From Tagaea sp. (GTDB taxonomy: Bacteria; Pseudomonadota; Alphaproteobacteria; CACIAM-22H2), in NCBI GenBank assembly GCA_965279525.1, contig CBDIIB010000005.1:576001-640000 (forward strand): a stretch of 64,000 nt of DNA. The letters run 5' to 3'. The position numbers and the translations under genes were made by a program. Of the stretch, positions 40,654-43,427 are shown piece after piece; position 1 is the stretch's first letter; each line of letters starts with the position of its first letter. The notes beneath the pieces were generated by a model. That model made no database searches. It was not told the DNA's origin and saw nothing but the letters and a program-made list of their open reading frames with translations.

Positions 40654-41721
40654 ATGCAGAGCCGCACCCTCGCCATCCTCGCCTTGTCGGCCGCCATCGT
40701 CGGCGGGGCCGCCGTGATCGCCACCGGCGGGCGCAACGACGCGTCCGACGCCGATCCCGCGGGCAAGCTCGTGTTCCCCAACCTGCCCGCGCGCATCGAC
40801 GGCGTGGCGCGCATCGAGATCGAGCGCGGCGGCGAGAAGTTCGAGCTGGTGCGCGACGCCGCCGGCCACTGGACGATGCCGGCCAAAGCGGGCTATCCGG
40901 CCGATTTCCAGCTTGTCCGCCGGCTGGCGCTCGACATGGCGAACATGCGCATCCTCGAGGCGCGCACCGCGAGCAAGGCGCTGCATGCCGACATCGATCT
41001 CGACGGTTCGGGCAAGGACCAGAAGGCCGTGCGCGTGGCGCTGTCCGGCGCGCAGACCGAGCAGTTCGCCAGCGTGCTCGTGGGGCGCACGCGCTTCGGC
41101 CGGCAGGGCAATGCCGGCGACGGCACGTTCGTGCGCCGCGAGGGCGAGGACCAGGTTTGGTTCGTCCAGGGACGTGTGGGCGTGGAACGCGAACAGACCA
41201 AATGGCTTGAAAAGCGCATCGTCGACGTGGTGCGCGAGCGCGTGGCCAAGGCCGTCGTCGTGACGGCCGACGGGGCACGCCTCGAAATATCGCGCGCCAA
41301 GCACGACCAGCAGGATTTCGATCTGGCGGCGGTCCCCGCCGACAAGAAGATCAAGACGGCGTTCGACGTGAACCTCATTGCATCCGCCATCGAAGCCCTC
41401 GACCTCGAGGACGTGCGCAAGGCCGACGGCCTCGCCTTCCTCGGCCAGCGCGACTTCGCCGAATTCACGACGTTCGACGGCCTTGCCGTGCGCGTCGAAT
41501 TCGCCAAGGACGGCGCCGACATCTGGGCGCGCTTCACCGCACGCCACGCGGCTCCGGCCACGCCGGTCGAAGGCGACAAGCTGAAGAAGCCCGACGAGGT
41601 TGCCGCCGAAGCCGCACAGATCGCCAAGCGCACCCACGGCTGGGCCTACCGCGTGCCGGCCTACAAGGCCGAGCAGATGAGCCGGAAGATCGCCGACCTC
41701 GTCGAGGACAAGGGCGCCTGA
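40654..41721 (+). CDS. DUF4340 domain protein
   Basis: N-terminal TM, GYPAD motif; fourth gene of a Gld-like operon. Confidence 0.85.
   Translation: MQSRTLAILALSAAIVGGAAVIATGGRNDASDADPAGKLVFPNLPARIDGVARIEIERGGEKFELVRDAAGHWTMPAKAGYPADFQLVRRLALDMANMRILEARTASKALHADIDLDGSGKDQKAVRVALSGAQTEQFASVLVGRTRFGRQGNAGDGTFVRREGEDQVWFVQGRVGVEREQTKWLEKRIVDVVRERVAKAVVVTADGARLEISRAKHDQQDFDLAAVPADKKIKTAFDVNLIASAIEALDLEDVRKADGLAFLGQRDFAEFTTFDGLAVRVEFAKDGADIWARFTARHAAPATPVEGDKLKKPDEVAAEAAQIAKRTHGWAYRVPAYKAEQMSRKIADLVEDKGA
41707..41721 (+). repeat. Left direct repeat (att-like) GACAAGGGCGCCTGA
   Basis: 14/15 identical to 42860-42874; it is the last four codons plus stop of the DUF4340 gene. Confidence 0.8.
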
Positions 41722-41751
41722 ACGAGGTCAGGCTCCAGCTCGAATCCCTTA

Positions 41752-41764
41752 CAATACATTGATT
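41752..41764 (-). promoter_or_regulatory. IHF-like site
   Basis: AATCAATGTATTG matches WATCAANNNNTTR exactly. Confidence 0.5.
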
Positions 41765-41939
41765 TAGTTTATATTTTTACGCTCGCCGGCATATCAAGTG
41801 AGCCGCGCGCCACCCCCATTCGTGGTATTCCAATTTTGAGATAGCCCCTACCCATTGTGGTGCGCTAGCGTGTTAGGTATATGGCCGAATTGCAATTTTT
41901 GATTCGCAATCGCTGTGCAGGTCAGATTAGAATGTTGGA

Positions 41940-42446
41940 ATGCACTGCGAGACCCTCGCCAAAAACGCGCCTTCGGGCGCGATCCCGGTTGCTATCGAAG
42001 AGCTCTTCGAGAAGCTGCGCCTTGCGCGTGTCAATCGGGAAAAGGCCGAAGCGACGGTCGAAGAAGAACAGGCCAATGCCATCCAGCTCGAGCGTCTGAT
42101 CGCTGGACTGGTCGCTCTTCTCCCGGCGGCCGATCAATCCAAATACCGCGCTAGGCTGAGTCCGGCGGCACCGTCGAAGGGCGGCATTGTCTTCGACAAC
42201 GTCGTCAGCCTTTTCCGCGATGCTCCGAATCAACAGTGGACGCCGACGAGCGTTCAGGCGGCGCTTGAAAAAAAGGGCGTCAGTGCCGACACAAAAGCAA
42301 TCGCAAATATCCTCGCCTATTTGGCGCGGTCCGGAAAACTGGTGCGAGCTGCTCGCGGACATTACGTCTCGCAAGGCTGGATGATCGTCACGAGCGACGA
42401 AATCGAAGCCGATGAGATGAGCCGCGAAAAGTTCGCCGAACTGTAA
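41940..42446 (+). CDS. Hypothetical protein: N-terminal coiled coil plus C-terminal winged-helix-like domain
   Basis: Amphipathic helix LRLARVNREKAEATVEEEQANAIQLERLI; WTPTSVQAAL...IANILAYLARSGKLVRAARGHY wHTH-like pattern. Confidence 0.75.
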   Translation: MHCETLAKNAPSGAIPVAIEELFEKLRLARVNREKAEATVEEEQANAIQLERLIAGLVALLPAADQSKYRARLSPAAPSKGGIVFDNVVSLFRDAPNQQWTPTSVQAALEKKGVSADTKAIANILAYLARSGKLVRAARGHYVSQGWMIVTSDEIEADEMSREKFAEL

Positions 42447-42451
42447 GGAGG

Positions 42452-42483
42452 AAAAGAAAACGCCGCCGGTTGGATCGGCGGCG
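42452..42483 (-). terminator. Intrinsic terminator-like hairpin (minus strand)
   Basis: CGCCGCCGGT-TGG-ATCGGCGGCG stem, followed on the minus strand by TTTTCTTTT. Confidence 0.6.
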
Positions 42484-42491
42484 TCAGGAAA

Positions 42492-42577
42492 ACCAGGGTG
42501 GCGAAAATGGTAGACGCAACAGAGTTGGATTCTGTGGGTCCGTGGTGGCCGTGTGGGTTCGAGTCCCGCCCCTGGTA
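42492..42577 (+). tRNA. Irregular type II tRNA: Leu-type body with UGG (Pro) anticodon
   Basis: ACCAGGG/CCCTGGT acceptor, A73; D arm GCG-AAAATGGTAGA-CGC; anticodon arm ACAGA-GTTGGAT-TCTGT; variable stem; T arm GTGGG-TTCGAGT-CCCGC; CCA not encoded. Confidence 0.85.
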
Positions 42578-42602
42578 CATATGTTGAGCGTTCGGTTCTT
42601 GT

Positions 42603-42705
42603 GCCCCTGTGGTGCAATTGGAAAGACACGGCGGTGGCTACACCGCCGTCCCTAGAAGCTGGCCGGCTTCGAAGGACTGTGCAGGTTCGAATCCTGTCAG
42701 GGGCA
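42603..42705 (+). tRNA. Irregular tRNA-like RNA: Leu-type body, no canonical anticodon loop, very long variable arm
   Basis: GCCCCTG/CAGGGGC acceptor, A73; D arm GTG-CAATTGGAAAGA-CAC; GCGGTG-GCTA-CACCGC arm; variable arm GTCC..GAAGCT-GGCC-GGCTTC..GGAC; T arm GCAGG-TTCGAAT-CCTGT. Confidence 0.8.
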
Positions 42706-42761
42706 CCCTTAGCAGTCAACACTAAACTCTTGGATTCATTGTCGAATAGAAATTCGGACTC

Positions 42762-42774
42762 TTTCAATCACTTA
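42762..42774 (+). promoter_or_regulatory. IHF-like site
   Basis: TTTCAATCACTTA, one mismatch to WATCAANNNNTTR. Confidence 0.4.
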
Positions 42775-42859
42775 GCTAGCGCCTAGGCCTGCGTCTGCTG
42801 CGCGTTCTCCAACGTACTGCTTCCAAAGGCCTTCGACTCGACAAGAATCCCGTAGCCAA

Positions 42860-42874
42860 GACAAGGGCGCGTGA
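42860..42874 (+). repeat. Right direct repeat (att-like) GACAAGGGCGCGTGA
   Basis: 14/15 identical to 41707-41721; also reads D-K-G-A-stop. Confidence 0.8.
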
Positions 42875-42878
42875 GCCT

Positions 42879-43322
42879 CTAGCCGACGACGTTCCCGCGC
42901 ACCCATTTGCGCACGATCGTGTCGTCGGACGGCCAGTGCATCGGCTGCACGCCGGTCAGCTGCGCCAGCACGCATTTCCACGTGCCGCCCTCGCGCACAT
43001 AGGTGTCGGTGTAGCGGGTCATGCCGGTCACTTCGGTGCCCTCGCGCACGCGCACCCATTTGGTGGCCGAACTCACCAGTGCCATGTCGCCGAAGATCTC
43101 GATCCGCTCGTCGCGATAGTCCCAGTAGACGATCACGGCCGGATCGAAGCCGGTCGCCCATTCGACCAGATAGGCCGCGCGGTCGGTGCGCGAGCCGTCG
43201 GAATTGATGCAGGTGAAACGCGGATGGATGATCGCGTCGTGCGACGGCACGTCGTTGGTGACGAAGTTCTCGATGAACTTCGCGTTCAGCGCGCGCAGGG
43301 CGGCAAGGGTGTCGGCGGTCAT
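42879..43322 (-). CDS. Nuclear transport factor 2 (DUF4440) family protein
   Basis: IEIFGDMALV, TRYTDTYVREGGTWKCVLAQ. Confidence 0.85.
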   Translation of the reverse strand: MTADTLAALRALNAKFIENFVTNDVPSHDAIIHPRFTCINSDGSRTDRAAYLVEWATGFDPAVIVYWDYRDERIEIFGDMALVSSATKWVRVREGTEVTGMTRYTDTYVREGGTWKCVLAQLTGVQPMHWPSDDTIVRKWVRGNVVG

Positions 43323-43333
43323 GTCGCAGATTA

Positions 43334-43427
43334 CCCTCACCCCGGCCCTCTCCCGCAAGCGGGAGAGGGGGATGACAAAACGCGGTGGGTCCCCTCTCCC
43401 GCTAGCGGGAGAGGGTTAGGGTGAGGG
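43334..43427. repeat. REP-like inverted doublet (CCCTCACCC...CCCTCTCCCGCAAGCGGGAGAGGG family)
   Basis: Two palindromic units in inverted orientation separated by ~20 bp. Confidence 0.85.

What the first reader, a model, noticed from the sequence alone, without database searches (positions are those of the whole stretch)
42492..42577. tRNA with leucine identity elements but a proline anticodon (UGG)
Seen: type II cloverleaf with A73, A15:U48, A20a/G21 and a D arm close to tRNA-Leu (GGTAGACGC). It lacks tRNA-Pro features (C1:G72, G37, short variable loop), yet the anticodon is UGG. G32-U38 and U33-A37 could zip the loop to 3 nt. Inference: if charged by LeuRS it would insert Leu at CCA/CCG codons; if the loop is zipped it is a chargeable non-decoding tRNA.
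Basis: partly seen in the sequence, partly recalled or inferred. Interest (0 to 1): 0.85.

Follow-up and report, generated by a model that had tools for sequence, protein, structure and literature searches.

The report
Transposon-borne leucine-type tRNA reading proline codons
The odd tRNA is real and belongs to a previously undescribed family of leucine-shaped tRNAs with proline anticodons that ride inside IS1595-type jumping genes, whose transposase genes keep two special codons matching that tRNA; the copy here has lost its transposase.

Summary
Window 42492-42577 is an intact type-II tRNA gene with anticodon UGG (ARAGORN; Rfam 47 bits). It has the full E. coli-type leucine identity set, and its nearest relatives are tRNA-Leu genes.

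It is not a mutated host tRNA. It lies in a 1.14-kb, low-GC insertion absent from 20 of 20 same-genus genomes. Relatives in MAGs, metagenomes and viral contigs show the same module: small winged-helix ORF, hairpin, Leu-like tRNA(UGG), and sometimes an anticodon-less second tRNA-like RNA. In them it lies inside the inverted repeats of IS1595-family transposons.

Across 55 members, 22 of 24 cloverleaf pairs show compensatory changes. tRNA-linked transposases keep two site-specific CCA codons. An element whose tRNA has AGG has CCT at both sites.

Best reading: a cargo tRNA, probably charged by LeuRS, that decodes sentinel proline codons of its own transposase. The window copy is an orphan with no transposase and no inverted repeats. 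The amino acid it carries and its expression are untested. I found no prior description in six literature searches.

The parts
41707..41721 (.). Left copy of the 15-nt imperfect direct repeat GACAAGGGCGC[C/G]TGA. It contains the stop codon of the DUF4340 gene.
   Evidence: Read. In G019, G011 and G017 one copy joins the two flanks directly.
41722..42859 (.). 1.14-kb insertion of lower GC (0.48-0.61 against about 0.70), unique in the genome.
   Evidence: No match in 20 of 20 same-genus genomes. Flanks abut in relatives. GC and uniqueness.
41748..41775 (+). Sigma-70-like promoter match (CTTACA-16-TATATT) upstream of the small ORF.
   Evidence: This is a consensus match only; 2 were found against 0.4 expected.
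41940..42446 (+). Small ORF P0001 (168 aa): a long N-terminal helix followed by a C-terminal winged helix. It occupies the position of the small ORF found in all module relatives.
   Evidence: Translation. 177 library representatives at E<=1e-3. AlphaFold model pLDDT 84 with a winged helix at residues 82-144. Only weak PDB matches, to the Rok, Fur and CooA DNA-binding domains.
42459..42485 (.). Conserved GC-rich hairpin 6 nt upstream of the tRNA. Its loop GUUGGAU equals the anticodon loop. The T-tract is on the minus strand, so it looks like a terminator for antisense or convergent transcripts.
   Evidence: The stem covaries among window, L016, L028, L036 and L041.
42492..42577 (+). Type-II, Leu-identity tRNA with anticodon UGG (42526-42528), A37 and A73. 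All 24 modelled pairs are intact.
42603..42705 (+). tRNA-like 2: 7-bp acceptor, D-arm, 7-bp 'anticodon' helix with a 4-nt loop (no anticodon loop), about 31-nt variable arm, canonical T-arm, discriminator A.
   Evidence: Rfam 33.8 bits. Missed by ARAGORN. Folds of window, L028, L056 and L057 share the design.
42714..42737 (+). Conserved 3' boundary motif AGTCAAC...TAAAC..TTGGATTC that closes the RNA module.
   Evidence: Seen in the printed module sequences. Homology to relatives ends at about 42736.
42860..42874 (.). Right copy of the 15-nt direct repeat.

Best explanation
The gene is an intact but orphaned copy of the cargo tRNA of a lineage of IS1595-family transposons.

In complete elements the following parts lie between terminal inverted repeats of the type GGCGATTAT....TTGACAAACCC:
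- a small winged-helix ORF;
- a hairpin;
- a type-II tRNA with a tRNA-Leu body and a proline anticodon (mostly UGG);
- sometimes a second, anticodon-less tRNA-like RNA;
- the DDE transposase.

Shown:
- The tRNA is under selection as a cloverleaf.
- Its leucine identity nucleotides and its NGG anticodon are conserved across phyla.
- The transposase genes beside it keep two site-specific codons that match the anticodon by Watson-Crick pairing. Site A follows the HRIRxAM helix. Site B is near the C-terminus.

Inferred:
- The tRNA is processed, receives CCA, and is charged by the host LeuRS, which does not read the anticodon.
- It competes with the host tRNA-Pro at these sentinel codons. The element therefore sets the make-up or the rate of synthesis of its own transposase. 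I judge a dose-dependent Pro-to-Leu switch most likely; its direction is unknown.

In this genome the transposase and the inverted repeats are gone. If the tRNA is still expressed, it can only act on host CCA (and perhaps CCG) codons as a low-level Pro-to-Leu mistranslator.
For: Leu identity:
- A73, A15-U48, G18G19, A20a and C2-G71 are present in the window copy. This is the set given for E. coli tRNA-Leu in the passages seen of PMC9976931.
- A15, G18, G19 and A20a are invariant, and U48 and A73 are at least 90% conserved, in 55 family members.
- The nearest own-genome tRNAs are the five tRNA-Leu genes.
- 7 of 7 weak DNA matches in other genomes are tRNA-Leu.

Selected structure:
- 96.6% of 1320 cells are paired.
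- 22 of 24 pairs show changes on both sides.
- Covariation score is 0.788, against 0.216 for shuffles (0 of 500 reach it) and 0.11-0.18 for slid controls.

Transposon cargo:
- Pfam DDE_Tnp_IS1595 plus Zn_ribbon_IS1595 lie beside the module.
- tblastn finds the transposase in 37 of 61 tRNA-first loci from many phyla.
- Inverted repeats enclose ORF, tRNA and transposase in L036, L054 and L059. The 8-nt flanks are 7/8 identical in L054 and L059.

Anticodon constancy without pattern bias (transposase-first samples):
- L077 has UGG.
- Among viral loci, L113, L138 and L179 have UGG and L140 has AGG. The exceptions are L134 (GGA) and L158 (UAA-like).

Codon coupling:
- CCA makes up 96 of 344 Pro codons in linked transposases. 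It makes up 134 of 1328 in flanking ORFs of the same loci and 22 of 366 in unlinked transposases.
- Site A is CCA in 16 of 18 aligned prolines and site B in 15 of 17.
- 28 of 29 UGG-linked transposases have CCA at site A and/or B, against 9 of 106 without a called tRNA. Two of those 9 turned out to have the tRNA.
- L140 (anticodon AGG) has CCT at exactly sites A and B, and these are its only two CCT codons.
- L113, from a low-GC host (CCT x5), keeps one CCA, at site A.
- Within the main transposase clade, the 3 members with no nearby type-II tRNA have CCG, CCC or CCT at site A.

Orphan status here:
- No IS1595 transposase in the window or genome.
- No inverted repeat with up to 3 mismatches.
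- Homology to relatives covers only 42442-42736.
Against: - No aminoacylation or expression data exist for any member.
- Where sites A and B are not CCA, they carry other proline codons (CCC, CCG, CCT) and never a leucine codon. Proline is therefore acceptable there, and leucine is not shown to be wanted.
- At 15 conserved-Leu columns the linked transposases never have Pro. There is no wholesale Leu-by-CCA recoding.
- G35, G36 and A73 are proline determinants. The review passage also lists A37, which this tRNA has.
- The AGG covariation rests on one element. Its anticodon stem has only 3 clean pairs (read).
- The counts come from related sequences and are not independent.
- The depletion of CCA at the two universally conserved Pro columns also occurs, more weakly, in tRNA-less relatives: 2/46 against 99/314 in linked, 6/182 against 89/936 in tRNA-less.
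- P0001 in the window has no CCA codon.
- The 15-nt flanking repeat does not fit the 8-nt duplications seen in L054 and L059.
Confidence: 0.5

Rival explanations
1. It is a functional proline tRNA in an unusual type-II body. ProRS charges it through G35, G36 and A73. The element simply brings an extra decoder for CCA codons, as phages bring tRNAs for their preferred codons.
For: - Sites A and B are replaced only by synonymous Pro codons.
- The anticodons of linked tRNAs are nearly all NGG.
- The review passage names G35, G36, A73 and A37 as proline determinants.
- CCA is enriched throughout the linked transposases.
Against: - G72 and the G15-C48 pair of the bacterial proline set are missing. 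The window copy has A1:U72, the family is variable at 1:72, and A15-U48 is conserved.
- The conserved features are exactly the leucine set.
- The long variable arm is foreign to tRNA-Pro.
- Every host is expected to have its own tRNA-Pro(UGG), as G000 does. A plain supply role does not explain why two particular positions keep the exact-match codon even in a host where CCA is not rare (L113).
- L134 and L034 carry Leu-like cargo tRNAs with serine anticodons. This fits an anticodon-blind synthetase.
Confidence: 0.2
2. In this genome the gene is dead cargo: a leftover of a decayed transposon that is not transcribed or matured and does nothing, whatever it did in intact elements.
For: - The transposase and inverted repeats are lost.
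- The piece is unique and confined to this one genome among 21 of the genus.
- The hairpin directly upstream has its T-tract on the opposite strand.
- There is no encoded CCA.
Against: - All 24 modelled pairs and all invariant family nucleotides are intact.
- The small ORF is open and belongs to a family with 177 library representatives.
- A promoter-like site lies upstream.
- Lack of an encoded CCA is the rule in the family.
Confidence: 0.15
3. The tRNA-like RNAs are not decoders. They serve as structural or processing signals: RNase P/Z punctuation that releases and stabilises the ORF and transposase messages, or an RNA cofactor of transposition.
For: - tRNA-like 2 has no anticodon loop yet keeps its acceptor, D and T arms.
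- The hairpin sits 5-9 nt before the tRNA 5' end in the module relatives.
- The module can lie in either orientation relative to the transposase.
Against: - A processing signal needs no conserved anticodon. It would not predict matching codons at fixed sites of the transposase, nor their change to CCT with an AGG anticodon.
- The 7-nt anticodon loop with U33 (C33 in a few) is kept in tRNA 1.
Confidence: 0.1
4. It is a host tRNA-Leu gene copy that picked up anticodon mutations by chance, or it is an assembly error.
For: The body is 0.71 identical to the genome's tRNA-Leu(CAG).
Against: - It lies in foreign, low-GC DNA absent from relatives.
- It has closer homologues, with flanks included, in other organisms.
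- Contigs of three runs agree with the sequence.
- Four loop positions differ from the Leu(CAG) loop (read).
Confidence: 0.02

Closest known systems
allo-tRNAs (Mukai et al., Nucleic Acids Res 2017, PMC5389517; passages seen)
   Same: Natural bacterial type-II tRNAs whose body points to one amino acid (there serine) while their anticodons correspond to many other codons. Found mostly in environmental genomes.
   Different: - allo-tRNAs have 8/4 or 9/3 acceptor/T branches and serine identity. This tRNA is 7/5 with leucine identity.
- The passages seen do not mention a proline (UGG) anticodon, a transposon link or matched codons in a neighbouring gene; only those passages were read.
- Supplementary sequence lists could not be opened.
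tRNAProX / ProRSx of Streptomyces and other Actinobacteria
   Same: Naturally encoded bacterial tRNAs in which identity and anticodon disagree, giving deliberate missense decoding.
   Different: The polarity is reversed: a proline body with Ala/Thr/Asn anticodons, paired with a dedicated synthetase gene. Here a leucine body has a proline anticodon, there is no synthetase gene nearby, and the carrier is a transposon.
Nematode nev-tRNAs
   Same: Type-II, leucine-charged tRNAs with Gly or Ile anticodons: a Leu body with a non-Leu anticodon.
   Different: They are eukaryotic and chromosomal, with no linked gene carrying matching codons.
bldA tRNA-Leu(UAA) and TTA codons in Streptomyces (recalled)
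   Same: A single tRNA gene controls genes that keep a particular codon at a few positions in a high-GC genome.
   Different: bldA is a cognate tRNA for its codon and is a host regulator. Here the tRNA is probably non-cognate and regulates the element that carries it.
tRNA genes of phages and other mobile elements matched to the element's codon usage
   Same: A mobile element brings a tRNA whose anticodon fits codons enriched in its own genes.
   Different: - Those tRNAs are cognate.
- The carriers are large elements rather than 2-3-kb insertion sequences.
- No fixed sentinel positions are known to me.
Engineered tRNA-Ser(UGG) mistranslators in yeast and flies (search listing and abstracts: PMC6827378, PMC9258585)
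   Same: An anticodon-blind synthetase charges a type-II tRNA that carries the proline anticodon UGG, giving missense at proline codons.
   Different: Man-made, with serine rather than leucine.
IS10 RNA-OUT multicopy inhibition (recalled)
   Same: A trans-acting RNA made by each copy of an insertion sequence tunes translation of its transposase.
   Different: That is antisense pairing at the ribosome-binding site, not decoding by a tRNA.

Membership tests
Bacterial tRNA-Leu (LeuRS substrate, E. coli-type identity set as given in PMC9976931 passages) | Discriminator A73 | tested here: met
   A at 42577 follows the 7-bp acceptor stem. At least 90% conserved in 55 members.
Bacterial tRNA-Leu (LeuRS substrate, E. 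coli-type identity set as given in PMC9976931 passages) | A15-U48 pair, G18G19 and A20a in the D loop, U8:A14 | tested here: met
   D-arm GUGGCGAAAAUGGUAGACGC, with U before the T stem. A15, G18, G19 and A20a are invariant; U48 is at least 90% conserved.
Bacterial tRNA-Leu (LeuRS substrate, E. coli-type identity set as given in PMC9976931 passages) | Type-II architecture (long variable arm, 3-bp D stem) and C2-G71 against SerRS | tested here: met
   17-nt variable region with a covarying 4-bp stem. C2:G71 present.
Bacterial tRNA-Leu (LeuRS substrate, E. coli-type identity set as given in PMC9976931 passages) | Anticodon for a leucine codon (NAG or YAA) | tested here: not met
   The anticodon is UGG.
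Bacterial tRNA-Leu (LeuRS substrate, E. coli-type identity set as given in PMC9976931 passages) | Aminoacylation with leucine | not testable with these tools
   Needs charging assays or mass spectrometry.
Bacterial tRNA-Pro | Anticodon NGG with G35 G36, and A73 | tested here: met
   UGG and A73.
Bacterial tRNA-Pro | C1:G72, G15-C48 pair, G37, short variable loop | tested here: not met
   A1:U72, A15-U48, A37 and a 17-nt variable arm. The genome's canonical tRNA-Pro genes are 76-77 nt and start CGGAGCG.
allo-tRNA (PMC5389517) | 12-bp acceptor branch split 8/4 or 9/3 | tested here: not met
   7-bp acceptor and 5-bp T stem, both covarying.
IS1595-family insertion sequence (as cargo of one) | DDE_Tnp_IS1595 transposase with an N-terminal zinc ribbon next to the module | tested here: not met
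   Absent from the window and the genome. Present beside the homologous module in relatives: 37 of 61 loci, with Pfam hits.
IS1595-family insertion sequence (as cargo of one) | Terminal inverted repeats and a short target duplication around the whole unit | tested here: not met
   No inverted repeat in the window with up to 3 mismatches; instead a 15-nt imperfect direct repeat. Met in relatives L036, L054 and L059.
IS1595-borne Leu-like tRNA(NGG) module (family defined here) | Homology of hairpin, tRNA, tRNA-like 2 and 3' motif, in the same order downstream of a small winged-helix ORF | tested here: met
   Window 42442-42736 aligns to L054, L057, L036, L028, L016, L056 and others.

The most novel reading that the evidence does not exclude
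A lineage of IS1595 insertion sequences, spread over many bacterial phyla, encodes its own missense tRNA: a leucine body with a proline anticodon. It keeps two sentinel codons in its transposase gene for that tRNA to read.

The element thereby applies a private decoding rule to itself. The share of Leu against Pro at two hinge positions would report how many tRNA-expressing copies are in the cell, and would switch transposase activity. This would be copy-number sensing by programmed mistranslation.

The small winged-helix protein and the hairpin that mimics the anticodon loop would gate the tRNA. Orphaned copies, such as the one in this window, would be free-running Pro-to-Leu mistranslators of the host proteome.
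Probability: 0.3. Interest if true: 0.95.

Novelty: new variant of a known kind. Interest (0 to 1): 0.82.

Why it matters
- Natural tRNAs whose identity and anticodon disagree are rare, and they are the raw material of genetic-code change. Here such a tRNA recurs in dozens of organisms from many phyla and stays under selection. It is tied to a testable partner: two fixed codons in a neighbouring transposase gene that follow the anticodon.
- This gives a concrete system for asking whether deliberate missense decoding is used as a regulatory device by a selfish element.
- It would add a new kind of passenger to insertion sequences.
- It would explain a class of 'tRNA-Pro' calls with long variable arms that annotation pipelines currently label as ordinary proline tRNAs.
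- Orphan copies like this one are candidate sources of proteome-wide Pro-to-Leu errors.
- The family offers ready-made tRNA scaffolds that are blind to their anticodon.

Tried and rejected
- **Private code for the transposase (CCA meaning Leu at conserved Leu positions): rejected.** 0% Pro at 15 conserved-Leu columns. CCA codons sit at columns where homologues have K/S/N/D/A/T/P; Leu weight is 1.0 of about 74.
- **Programmed frameshift at CCN: no sign.** tblastn gives full-length single-frame matches, and the contexts of the CCA sites share no slippery pattern.
- **Extended pairing of the 7-nt anticodon loop with the mRNA: rejected.** The bases flanking the CCA sites are not conserved.
- **P0001 as a marker of the module: failed.**
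  - The word-based search found only the protein itself.
  - There was no plasmid or phage match.
  - None of 80 family members matched the 41 tRNA loci, apart from one weak hit.
  - The small ORFs of L016, L028 and L036 are not related to it by HMM.
- **Fold search of the P0001 model:** only generic winged-helix matches, best E 3e-3.
- **Upstream hairpin as a family-wide anticodon mimic: not upheld.** Only the alphaproteobacterial subfamily, and perhaps L039/L048, show it.
- **Plasmid-borne transposase relatives:** 4 of 189 matching records were fetched. They carry no tRNA, and two carry a hypothetical gene plus a PIN/VapC gene instead.
- **Wider anticodon pattern in viral contigs:** it found further Leu-like tRNAs with GGG/CGG/UGG, but without the transposase in the DNA held, except for the L140 contig.
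- **CCA depletion at universally conserved prolines:** stronger in linked genes but present in both sets, and based on only two columns. I treat it as weak.
- **Expression:** no RNA holder is listed for the stretch. The three holders are DNA-type contigs. This says nothing about expression.
- **Literature:** searches with 'allo-tRNA/anticodon', 'mistranslation/leucine/proline codons', 'IS1595/tRNA', 'insertion sequence/passenger/tRNA gene/ISXO2', 'transposase/rare codon/encoded tRNA' and 'tRNALeu/proline anticodon' listed no paper describing a transposon-borne Leu-type tRNA with a proline anticodon. Only listings and abstracts were seen, except for passages of PMC5389517, PMC9569102 and PMC9976931. 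Supplements are closed and may hold relevant tRNA lists, in particular those of PMC5389517.
Full report
**1. Observation**

ARAGORN finds a single tRNA in the 64-kb window, at 42492-42578 on the plus strand, anticodon tgg. The Rfam tRNA model scores 47.0 bits (E 1.3e-8, gathering score 29) at 42492-42577.

Read against the cloverleaf, the gene has:
- a 7-bp acceptor stem beginning A1:U72 and C2:G71;
- U8 and a 3-bp D stem;
- the D loop AAAAUGGUAGA, with A14, A15, G18G19 and A20a;
- a 5-bp anticodon stem and the loop G-U-UGG-A-U;
- a 17-nt variable region with a 4-bp stem, and U48;
- a 5-bp T stem and A73, with no encoded CCA.

Logan contigs of three DNA runs cover 42300-42900 without a difference. 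These runs represent at most two samples of one study and may be the assembly's own source. The anticodon is therefore TGG as far as DNA data go.

The genome (4.35 Mb, 5 contigs) already has canonical tRNA-Pro UGG, CGG and GGG and five tRNA-Leu genes. The gene is supernumerary.

**2. Identity**

With the anticodon masked, the five most similar tRNAs of the same genome are its five tRNA-Leu genes (0.67-0.71 identity). The best tRNA-Pro scores 0.61. The only weak DNA matches in 60 related genomes are tRNA-Leu genes, 7 of 7.

The passages I read of the identity review PMC9976931 give the following.
- For E. coli tRNA-Leu, A73 is crucial. The A15-U48 pair, G18G19 and A20a are essential, and C2-G71 acts against SerRS. 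Neither the anticodon nor the variable arm matters.
- For proline: G72, G35, G36, A73, the G15-C48 pair and (as printed there) A37.

The window tRNA has the whole leucine set. Of the proline set it has only G35, G36, A73 and A37.

**3. Genomic setting**

None of 20 genomes of the same genus has a match to 42480-42720. In the closest ones (G019, G011, G017) the end of the DUF4340 gene runs directly into the segment that starts at window 42858-42860. Window 41722-42859 is therefore a 1.14-kb insertion. It is flanked by a 15-nt imperfect direct repeat (41707-41721 and 42860-42874). It has lower GC (0.48-0.61 against about 0.70) and is unique in the genome.

The insertion holds, in order:
- a promoter-like site;
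- a 168-aa ORF (P0001);
- a GC-rich hairpin at 42459-42485;
- the tRNA;
- a second tRNA-like gene at 42603-42705 (Rfam 33.8 bits; missed by ARAGORN);
- a short conserved motif at 42714-42737.

**4. A family**

A pattern was scanned over one genome for each of 185,579 species. It demanded a Leu-type D arm, U33-UGG-A37, a long variable region and a T loop. It matched 41 loci. ARAGORN calls a type-II 'tRNA-Pro(tgg)' of 83-99 nt in 38 of the 41. The hosts are Acidobacteriota, Gemmatimonadota, Chloroflexota, Alpha- and Gammaproteobacteria, Bacteroidales, Planctomycetota and others, nearly all MAGs.

Four of the loci (L016, L028, L036, L041) are homologous to the window beyond the tRNA. They share the upstream hairpin and, in L016 and L028, the second tRNA-like gene. 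A second pattern built on hairpin plus tRNA found 15 more loci in metagenome contigs. The first pattern found 5 in viral contigs. Homology of the window to all of these covers 42442-42736 only.

**5. The carrier is a transposon**

Next to the module lie genes with Pfam DDE_Tnp_IS1595 and Zn_ribbon_IS1595. This transposase cluster occurs in 11 of the 20 hairpin-module sources, window included. tblastn finds it in 37 of the 61 loci L012-L072, across the phyla named above and in two viral contigs. Several of the other loci are cut close to the tRNA.

Terminal inverted repeats of the type GGCGATTAT....TTGACAAACCC enclose the small ORF, hairpin, tRNA(s) and transposase:
- L036: 2783 bp;
- L054: 2016 bp;
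- L059: 2151 bp.

The 8 nt outside the repeats are 7/8 identical in L054 and L059, and 5/8 in L036. This is as expected for a target duplication.

The window has none of this. There is no transposase in the window or anywhere in the genome, and no inverted repeat with up to three mismatches. The window copy is an orphaned piece of such an element. How it came to lie between 15-nt repeats is unexplained.

**6. The tRNA is under selection**

I aligned 55 distinct members, the window included, and counted pairs on the cloverleaf I wrote from the window row.
- 96.6% of 1320 cells form standard pairs.
- 22 of 24 pairs show changes on both sides.
- The covariation score is 0.788, against 0.216 in shuffles (0 of 500 reach it) and 0.11-0.18 when partners are slid by 1-3 columns.
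- All five helices covary, the variable-arm stem included.
- A15, G18, G19, A20a, G35, G36 and the T loop are invariant. U48, A37 and A73 are at least 90% conserved.

The patterns forced parts of the D arm, U33-UGG-A37 and the T loop in most rows. Conservation of those letters is therefore partly by construction. The stems, A15, U48 and A73 were not forced.

**7. Is the proline anticodon constant without that bias?**

I sampled by transposase instead.
- Among 401 genomes of the class, 78 have a match at E<=1e-30. Of the 30 loci returned (29 without L105, from the unpublished genome G275), only the closest (L077, 59% identity) has a neighbouring tRNA. It is a Leu-like type-II tRNA with UGG.
- Among the 80 best viral-contig loci, Leu-like type-II tRNAs lie beside the transposase in L113, L138 and L179 (UGG), L140 (AGG), L134 (GGA, a serine anticodon) and L158 (UAA-like, a leucine anticodon beside a transposase of the unlinked type).
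- Four plasmid relatives, including Methylobacterium oryzae pMOC1 and a Roseomonas marmotae plasmid, have no tRNA. Two carry a hypothetical gene plus a PIN/VapC gene as passengers.

So the tRNA passenger marks a sub-lineage, and its anticodon is nearly always NGG. On a FastTree of 133 transposases, 19 of the 26 with an adjacent UGG or AGG tRNA fall in one clade (support 0.94). That clade holds four other members: three with no nearby type-II tRNA and L034, which carries both UGA and UGG tRNAs. Seven linked ones lie outside it.

**8. Codon coupling (the main new result)**

In tRNA-linked transposases CCA makes up 96 of 344 proline codons (28%). In long flanking ORFs of the same loci it makes up 134 of 1328 (10%). 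In unlinked transposases it makes up 22 of 366 (6%). The Fisher odds ratio is 3.4, but the sequences are related, so the p-value overstates.

The excess is concentrated at two alignment positions.
- Site A directly follows the conserved HRIRxAM helix and precedes the first catalytic motif. It is CCA in 16 of 18 prolines.
- Site B lies a few codons before the stop (GKRLxYxx-P). It is CCA in 15 of 17.

In a larger set of 138 distinct transposases, 28 of the 29 with an adjacent UGG tRNA have CCA at site A and/or B. Only 9 of 106 without a called tRNA do. Two of those nine, L012 and L154, do have the tRNA and were missed by my filter.

Further observations point the same way.
- The three clade members with no nearby type-II tRNA have CCG, CCC or CCT at site A.
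- The one element whose tRNA has anticodon AGG (L140) has CCT at exactly sites A and B. These are the only two CCT codons of the gene.
- L113, from a low-GC host that otherwise uses CCT, keeps its single CCA at site A.
- L034 carries two Leu-like tRNAs (UGA and UGG). It has a single TCA codon, directly after a CCA codon.

I take this as good evidence that the cargo tRNA reads these codons on the ribosome.

**9. Which amino acid?**

This is not shown.

For leucine:
- the conserved leucine identity set;
- the lack of G72 and G15-C48;
- the type-II body;
- cargo tRNAs of the same build with serine anticodons (L134, L034), which fits a synthetase that ignores the anticodon.

For proline, or at least against a need for leucine:
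- where sites A and B are not CCA they hold other proline codons, never leucine codons;
- linked transposases never have Pro at 15 conserved-Leu columns.

CCA codons lie mostly at variable columns. They are scarce at the two universally conserved prolines: 2 of 46 against 99 of 314 elsewhere. A weaker bias of the same kind exists in tRNA-less relatives, 6 of 182 against 89 of 936.

My reading is as follows. The host LeuRS charges the tRNA. It competes with the host tRNA-Pro at the sentinel codons. The resulting Pro/Leu mixture, or the decoding rate, tunes the transposase. A dose-dependent, copy-number-reporting switch is the most attractive version, but it is speculation.

**10. Other parts of the module**

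*The small ORFs.* They belong to at least four groups unrelated by BLAST or HMM. They always end 10-25 nt before the hairpin. P0001 has 177 library representatives at E<=1e-3. Its model (pLDDT 84) is a long helix followed by a winged helix, with only weak matches to DNA-binding domains of Rok, Fur and CooA.

*The hairpin.* Its stem covaries, and in the alphaproteobacterial subfamily it carries the same 7-nt loop as the anticodon arm. In L041 the first loop letter is C in both. Other subfamilies have unrelated hairpins. Its T-tract is on the minus strand, so it may stop convergent transposase transcripts. The loop identity is unexplained.

*tRNA-like 2.* It keeps its acceptor, D and T arms and a discriminator A. 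Its 'anticodon' arm, however, is a 6-8-bp helix closed by 3-4 nt, in the window, L028, L056 and L057. It cannot decode.

**11.

The G32-U38 and U33-A37 pairs are possible in the window and its close relatives. Most family members have C/U32 and A38. The codon coupling also argues for an open, decoding loop.

**12. Comparison and novelty**

The tRNA is not an allo-tRNA, because it is 7/5 rather than 8/4 or 9/3. It fails the acceptor, core and variable-loop features of tRNA-Pro. It fails only the anticodon criterion of tRNA-Leu.

The nearest known phenomena are:
- allo-tRNAs;
- the recalled tRNAProX/ProRSx system, which has the opposite polarity;
- the recalled nematode nev-tRNAs;
- the recalled bldA/TTA switch;
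- phage tRNAs matched to phage codon usage.

Six full-text searches listed no description of an insertion sequence carrying such a tRNA. Supplements could not be read.

I rate the tRNA as a new variant of a known kind, namely natural tRNAs whose identity and anticodon disagree. The transposon-tRNA-sentinel-codon arrangement as a whole has no counterpart that I know of.

**13. Limits**

- Everything here is computational.
- Most relatives are MAG or metagenome contigs.
- The counts are over related sequences.
- The AGG case is single, and its anticodon stem is weak.
- Expression and charging are unknown for every member. No RNA run holding the stretch was listed, which is no evidence either way.

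Noticed in passing
window 42603-42705: A second tRNA-like gene 25 nt downstream of the finding. It has a cloverleaf with canonical acceptor, D and T arms and a discriminator A. Its 'anticodon' helix is 7 bp with a 4-nt loop, and its variable arm is about 31 nt. The same design occurs in L028, L056 and L057. It passes the Rfam tRNA threshold (33.8 bits) but ARAGORN misses it.
   Followed up: partly
window 42459-42485: The hairpin just upstream of the tRNA has the same loop, GUUGGAU, as the anticodon loop. Its stem covaries among relatives. In L041 the first loop base is C in both the hairpin and the anticodon loop. No explanation found.
   Followed up: partly
window 43333-43427: A palindromic, MITE-like repeat of about 95 nt. 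It has many copies (both strands match) in this genome and in several, but not all, genomes of the genus.
   Followed up: no
own genome G000:C5:749716-749811 (minus strand, outside the window): ARAGORN calls a 96-nt 'tRNA-Ile(tat)' with a 5-6-bp D stem, a 4-nt D loop, a 6-bp anticodon stem and a long variable arm. It is not among the 47 Rfam tRNA matches. It resembles the allo-tRNA(UAU) class described in PMC5389517.
   Followed up: no
L034:1962-2148 and its transposase: This element carries two Leu-like type-II tRNAs side by side (anticodons UGA and UGG). Its transposase has a single TCA codon, directly after a CCA codon (aa 239-240).
   Followed up: partly
L016:7570-7657; transposase matches: The second tRNA of L016 has a CUA (amber-reading) anticodon according to ARAGORN. 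Several IS1595 transposase matches in class genomes carry one in-frame TAG. A link was not examined.
   Followed up: no
L187, L189, L199, L201, L203 (identical tRNA); L192, L194, L196: Viral contigs with other Leu-like type-II tRNAs bearing GGG, CGG or UGG anticodons. No IS1595 transposase lies in the DNA held.
   Followed up: no
L073 (Methylobacterium oryzae pMOC1) and L074 (Roseomonas marmotae plasmid): Transposase relatives (44-47% identity) carry different passengers in place of the ORF-tRNA module: a hypothetical protein of about 270-290 aa, a PIN/VapC-family gene and a small ORF.
   Followed up: no
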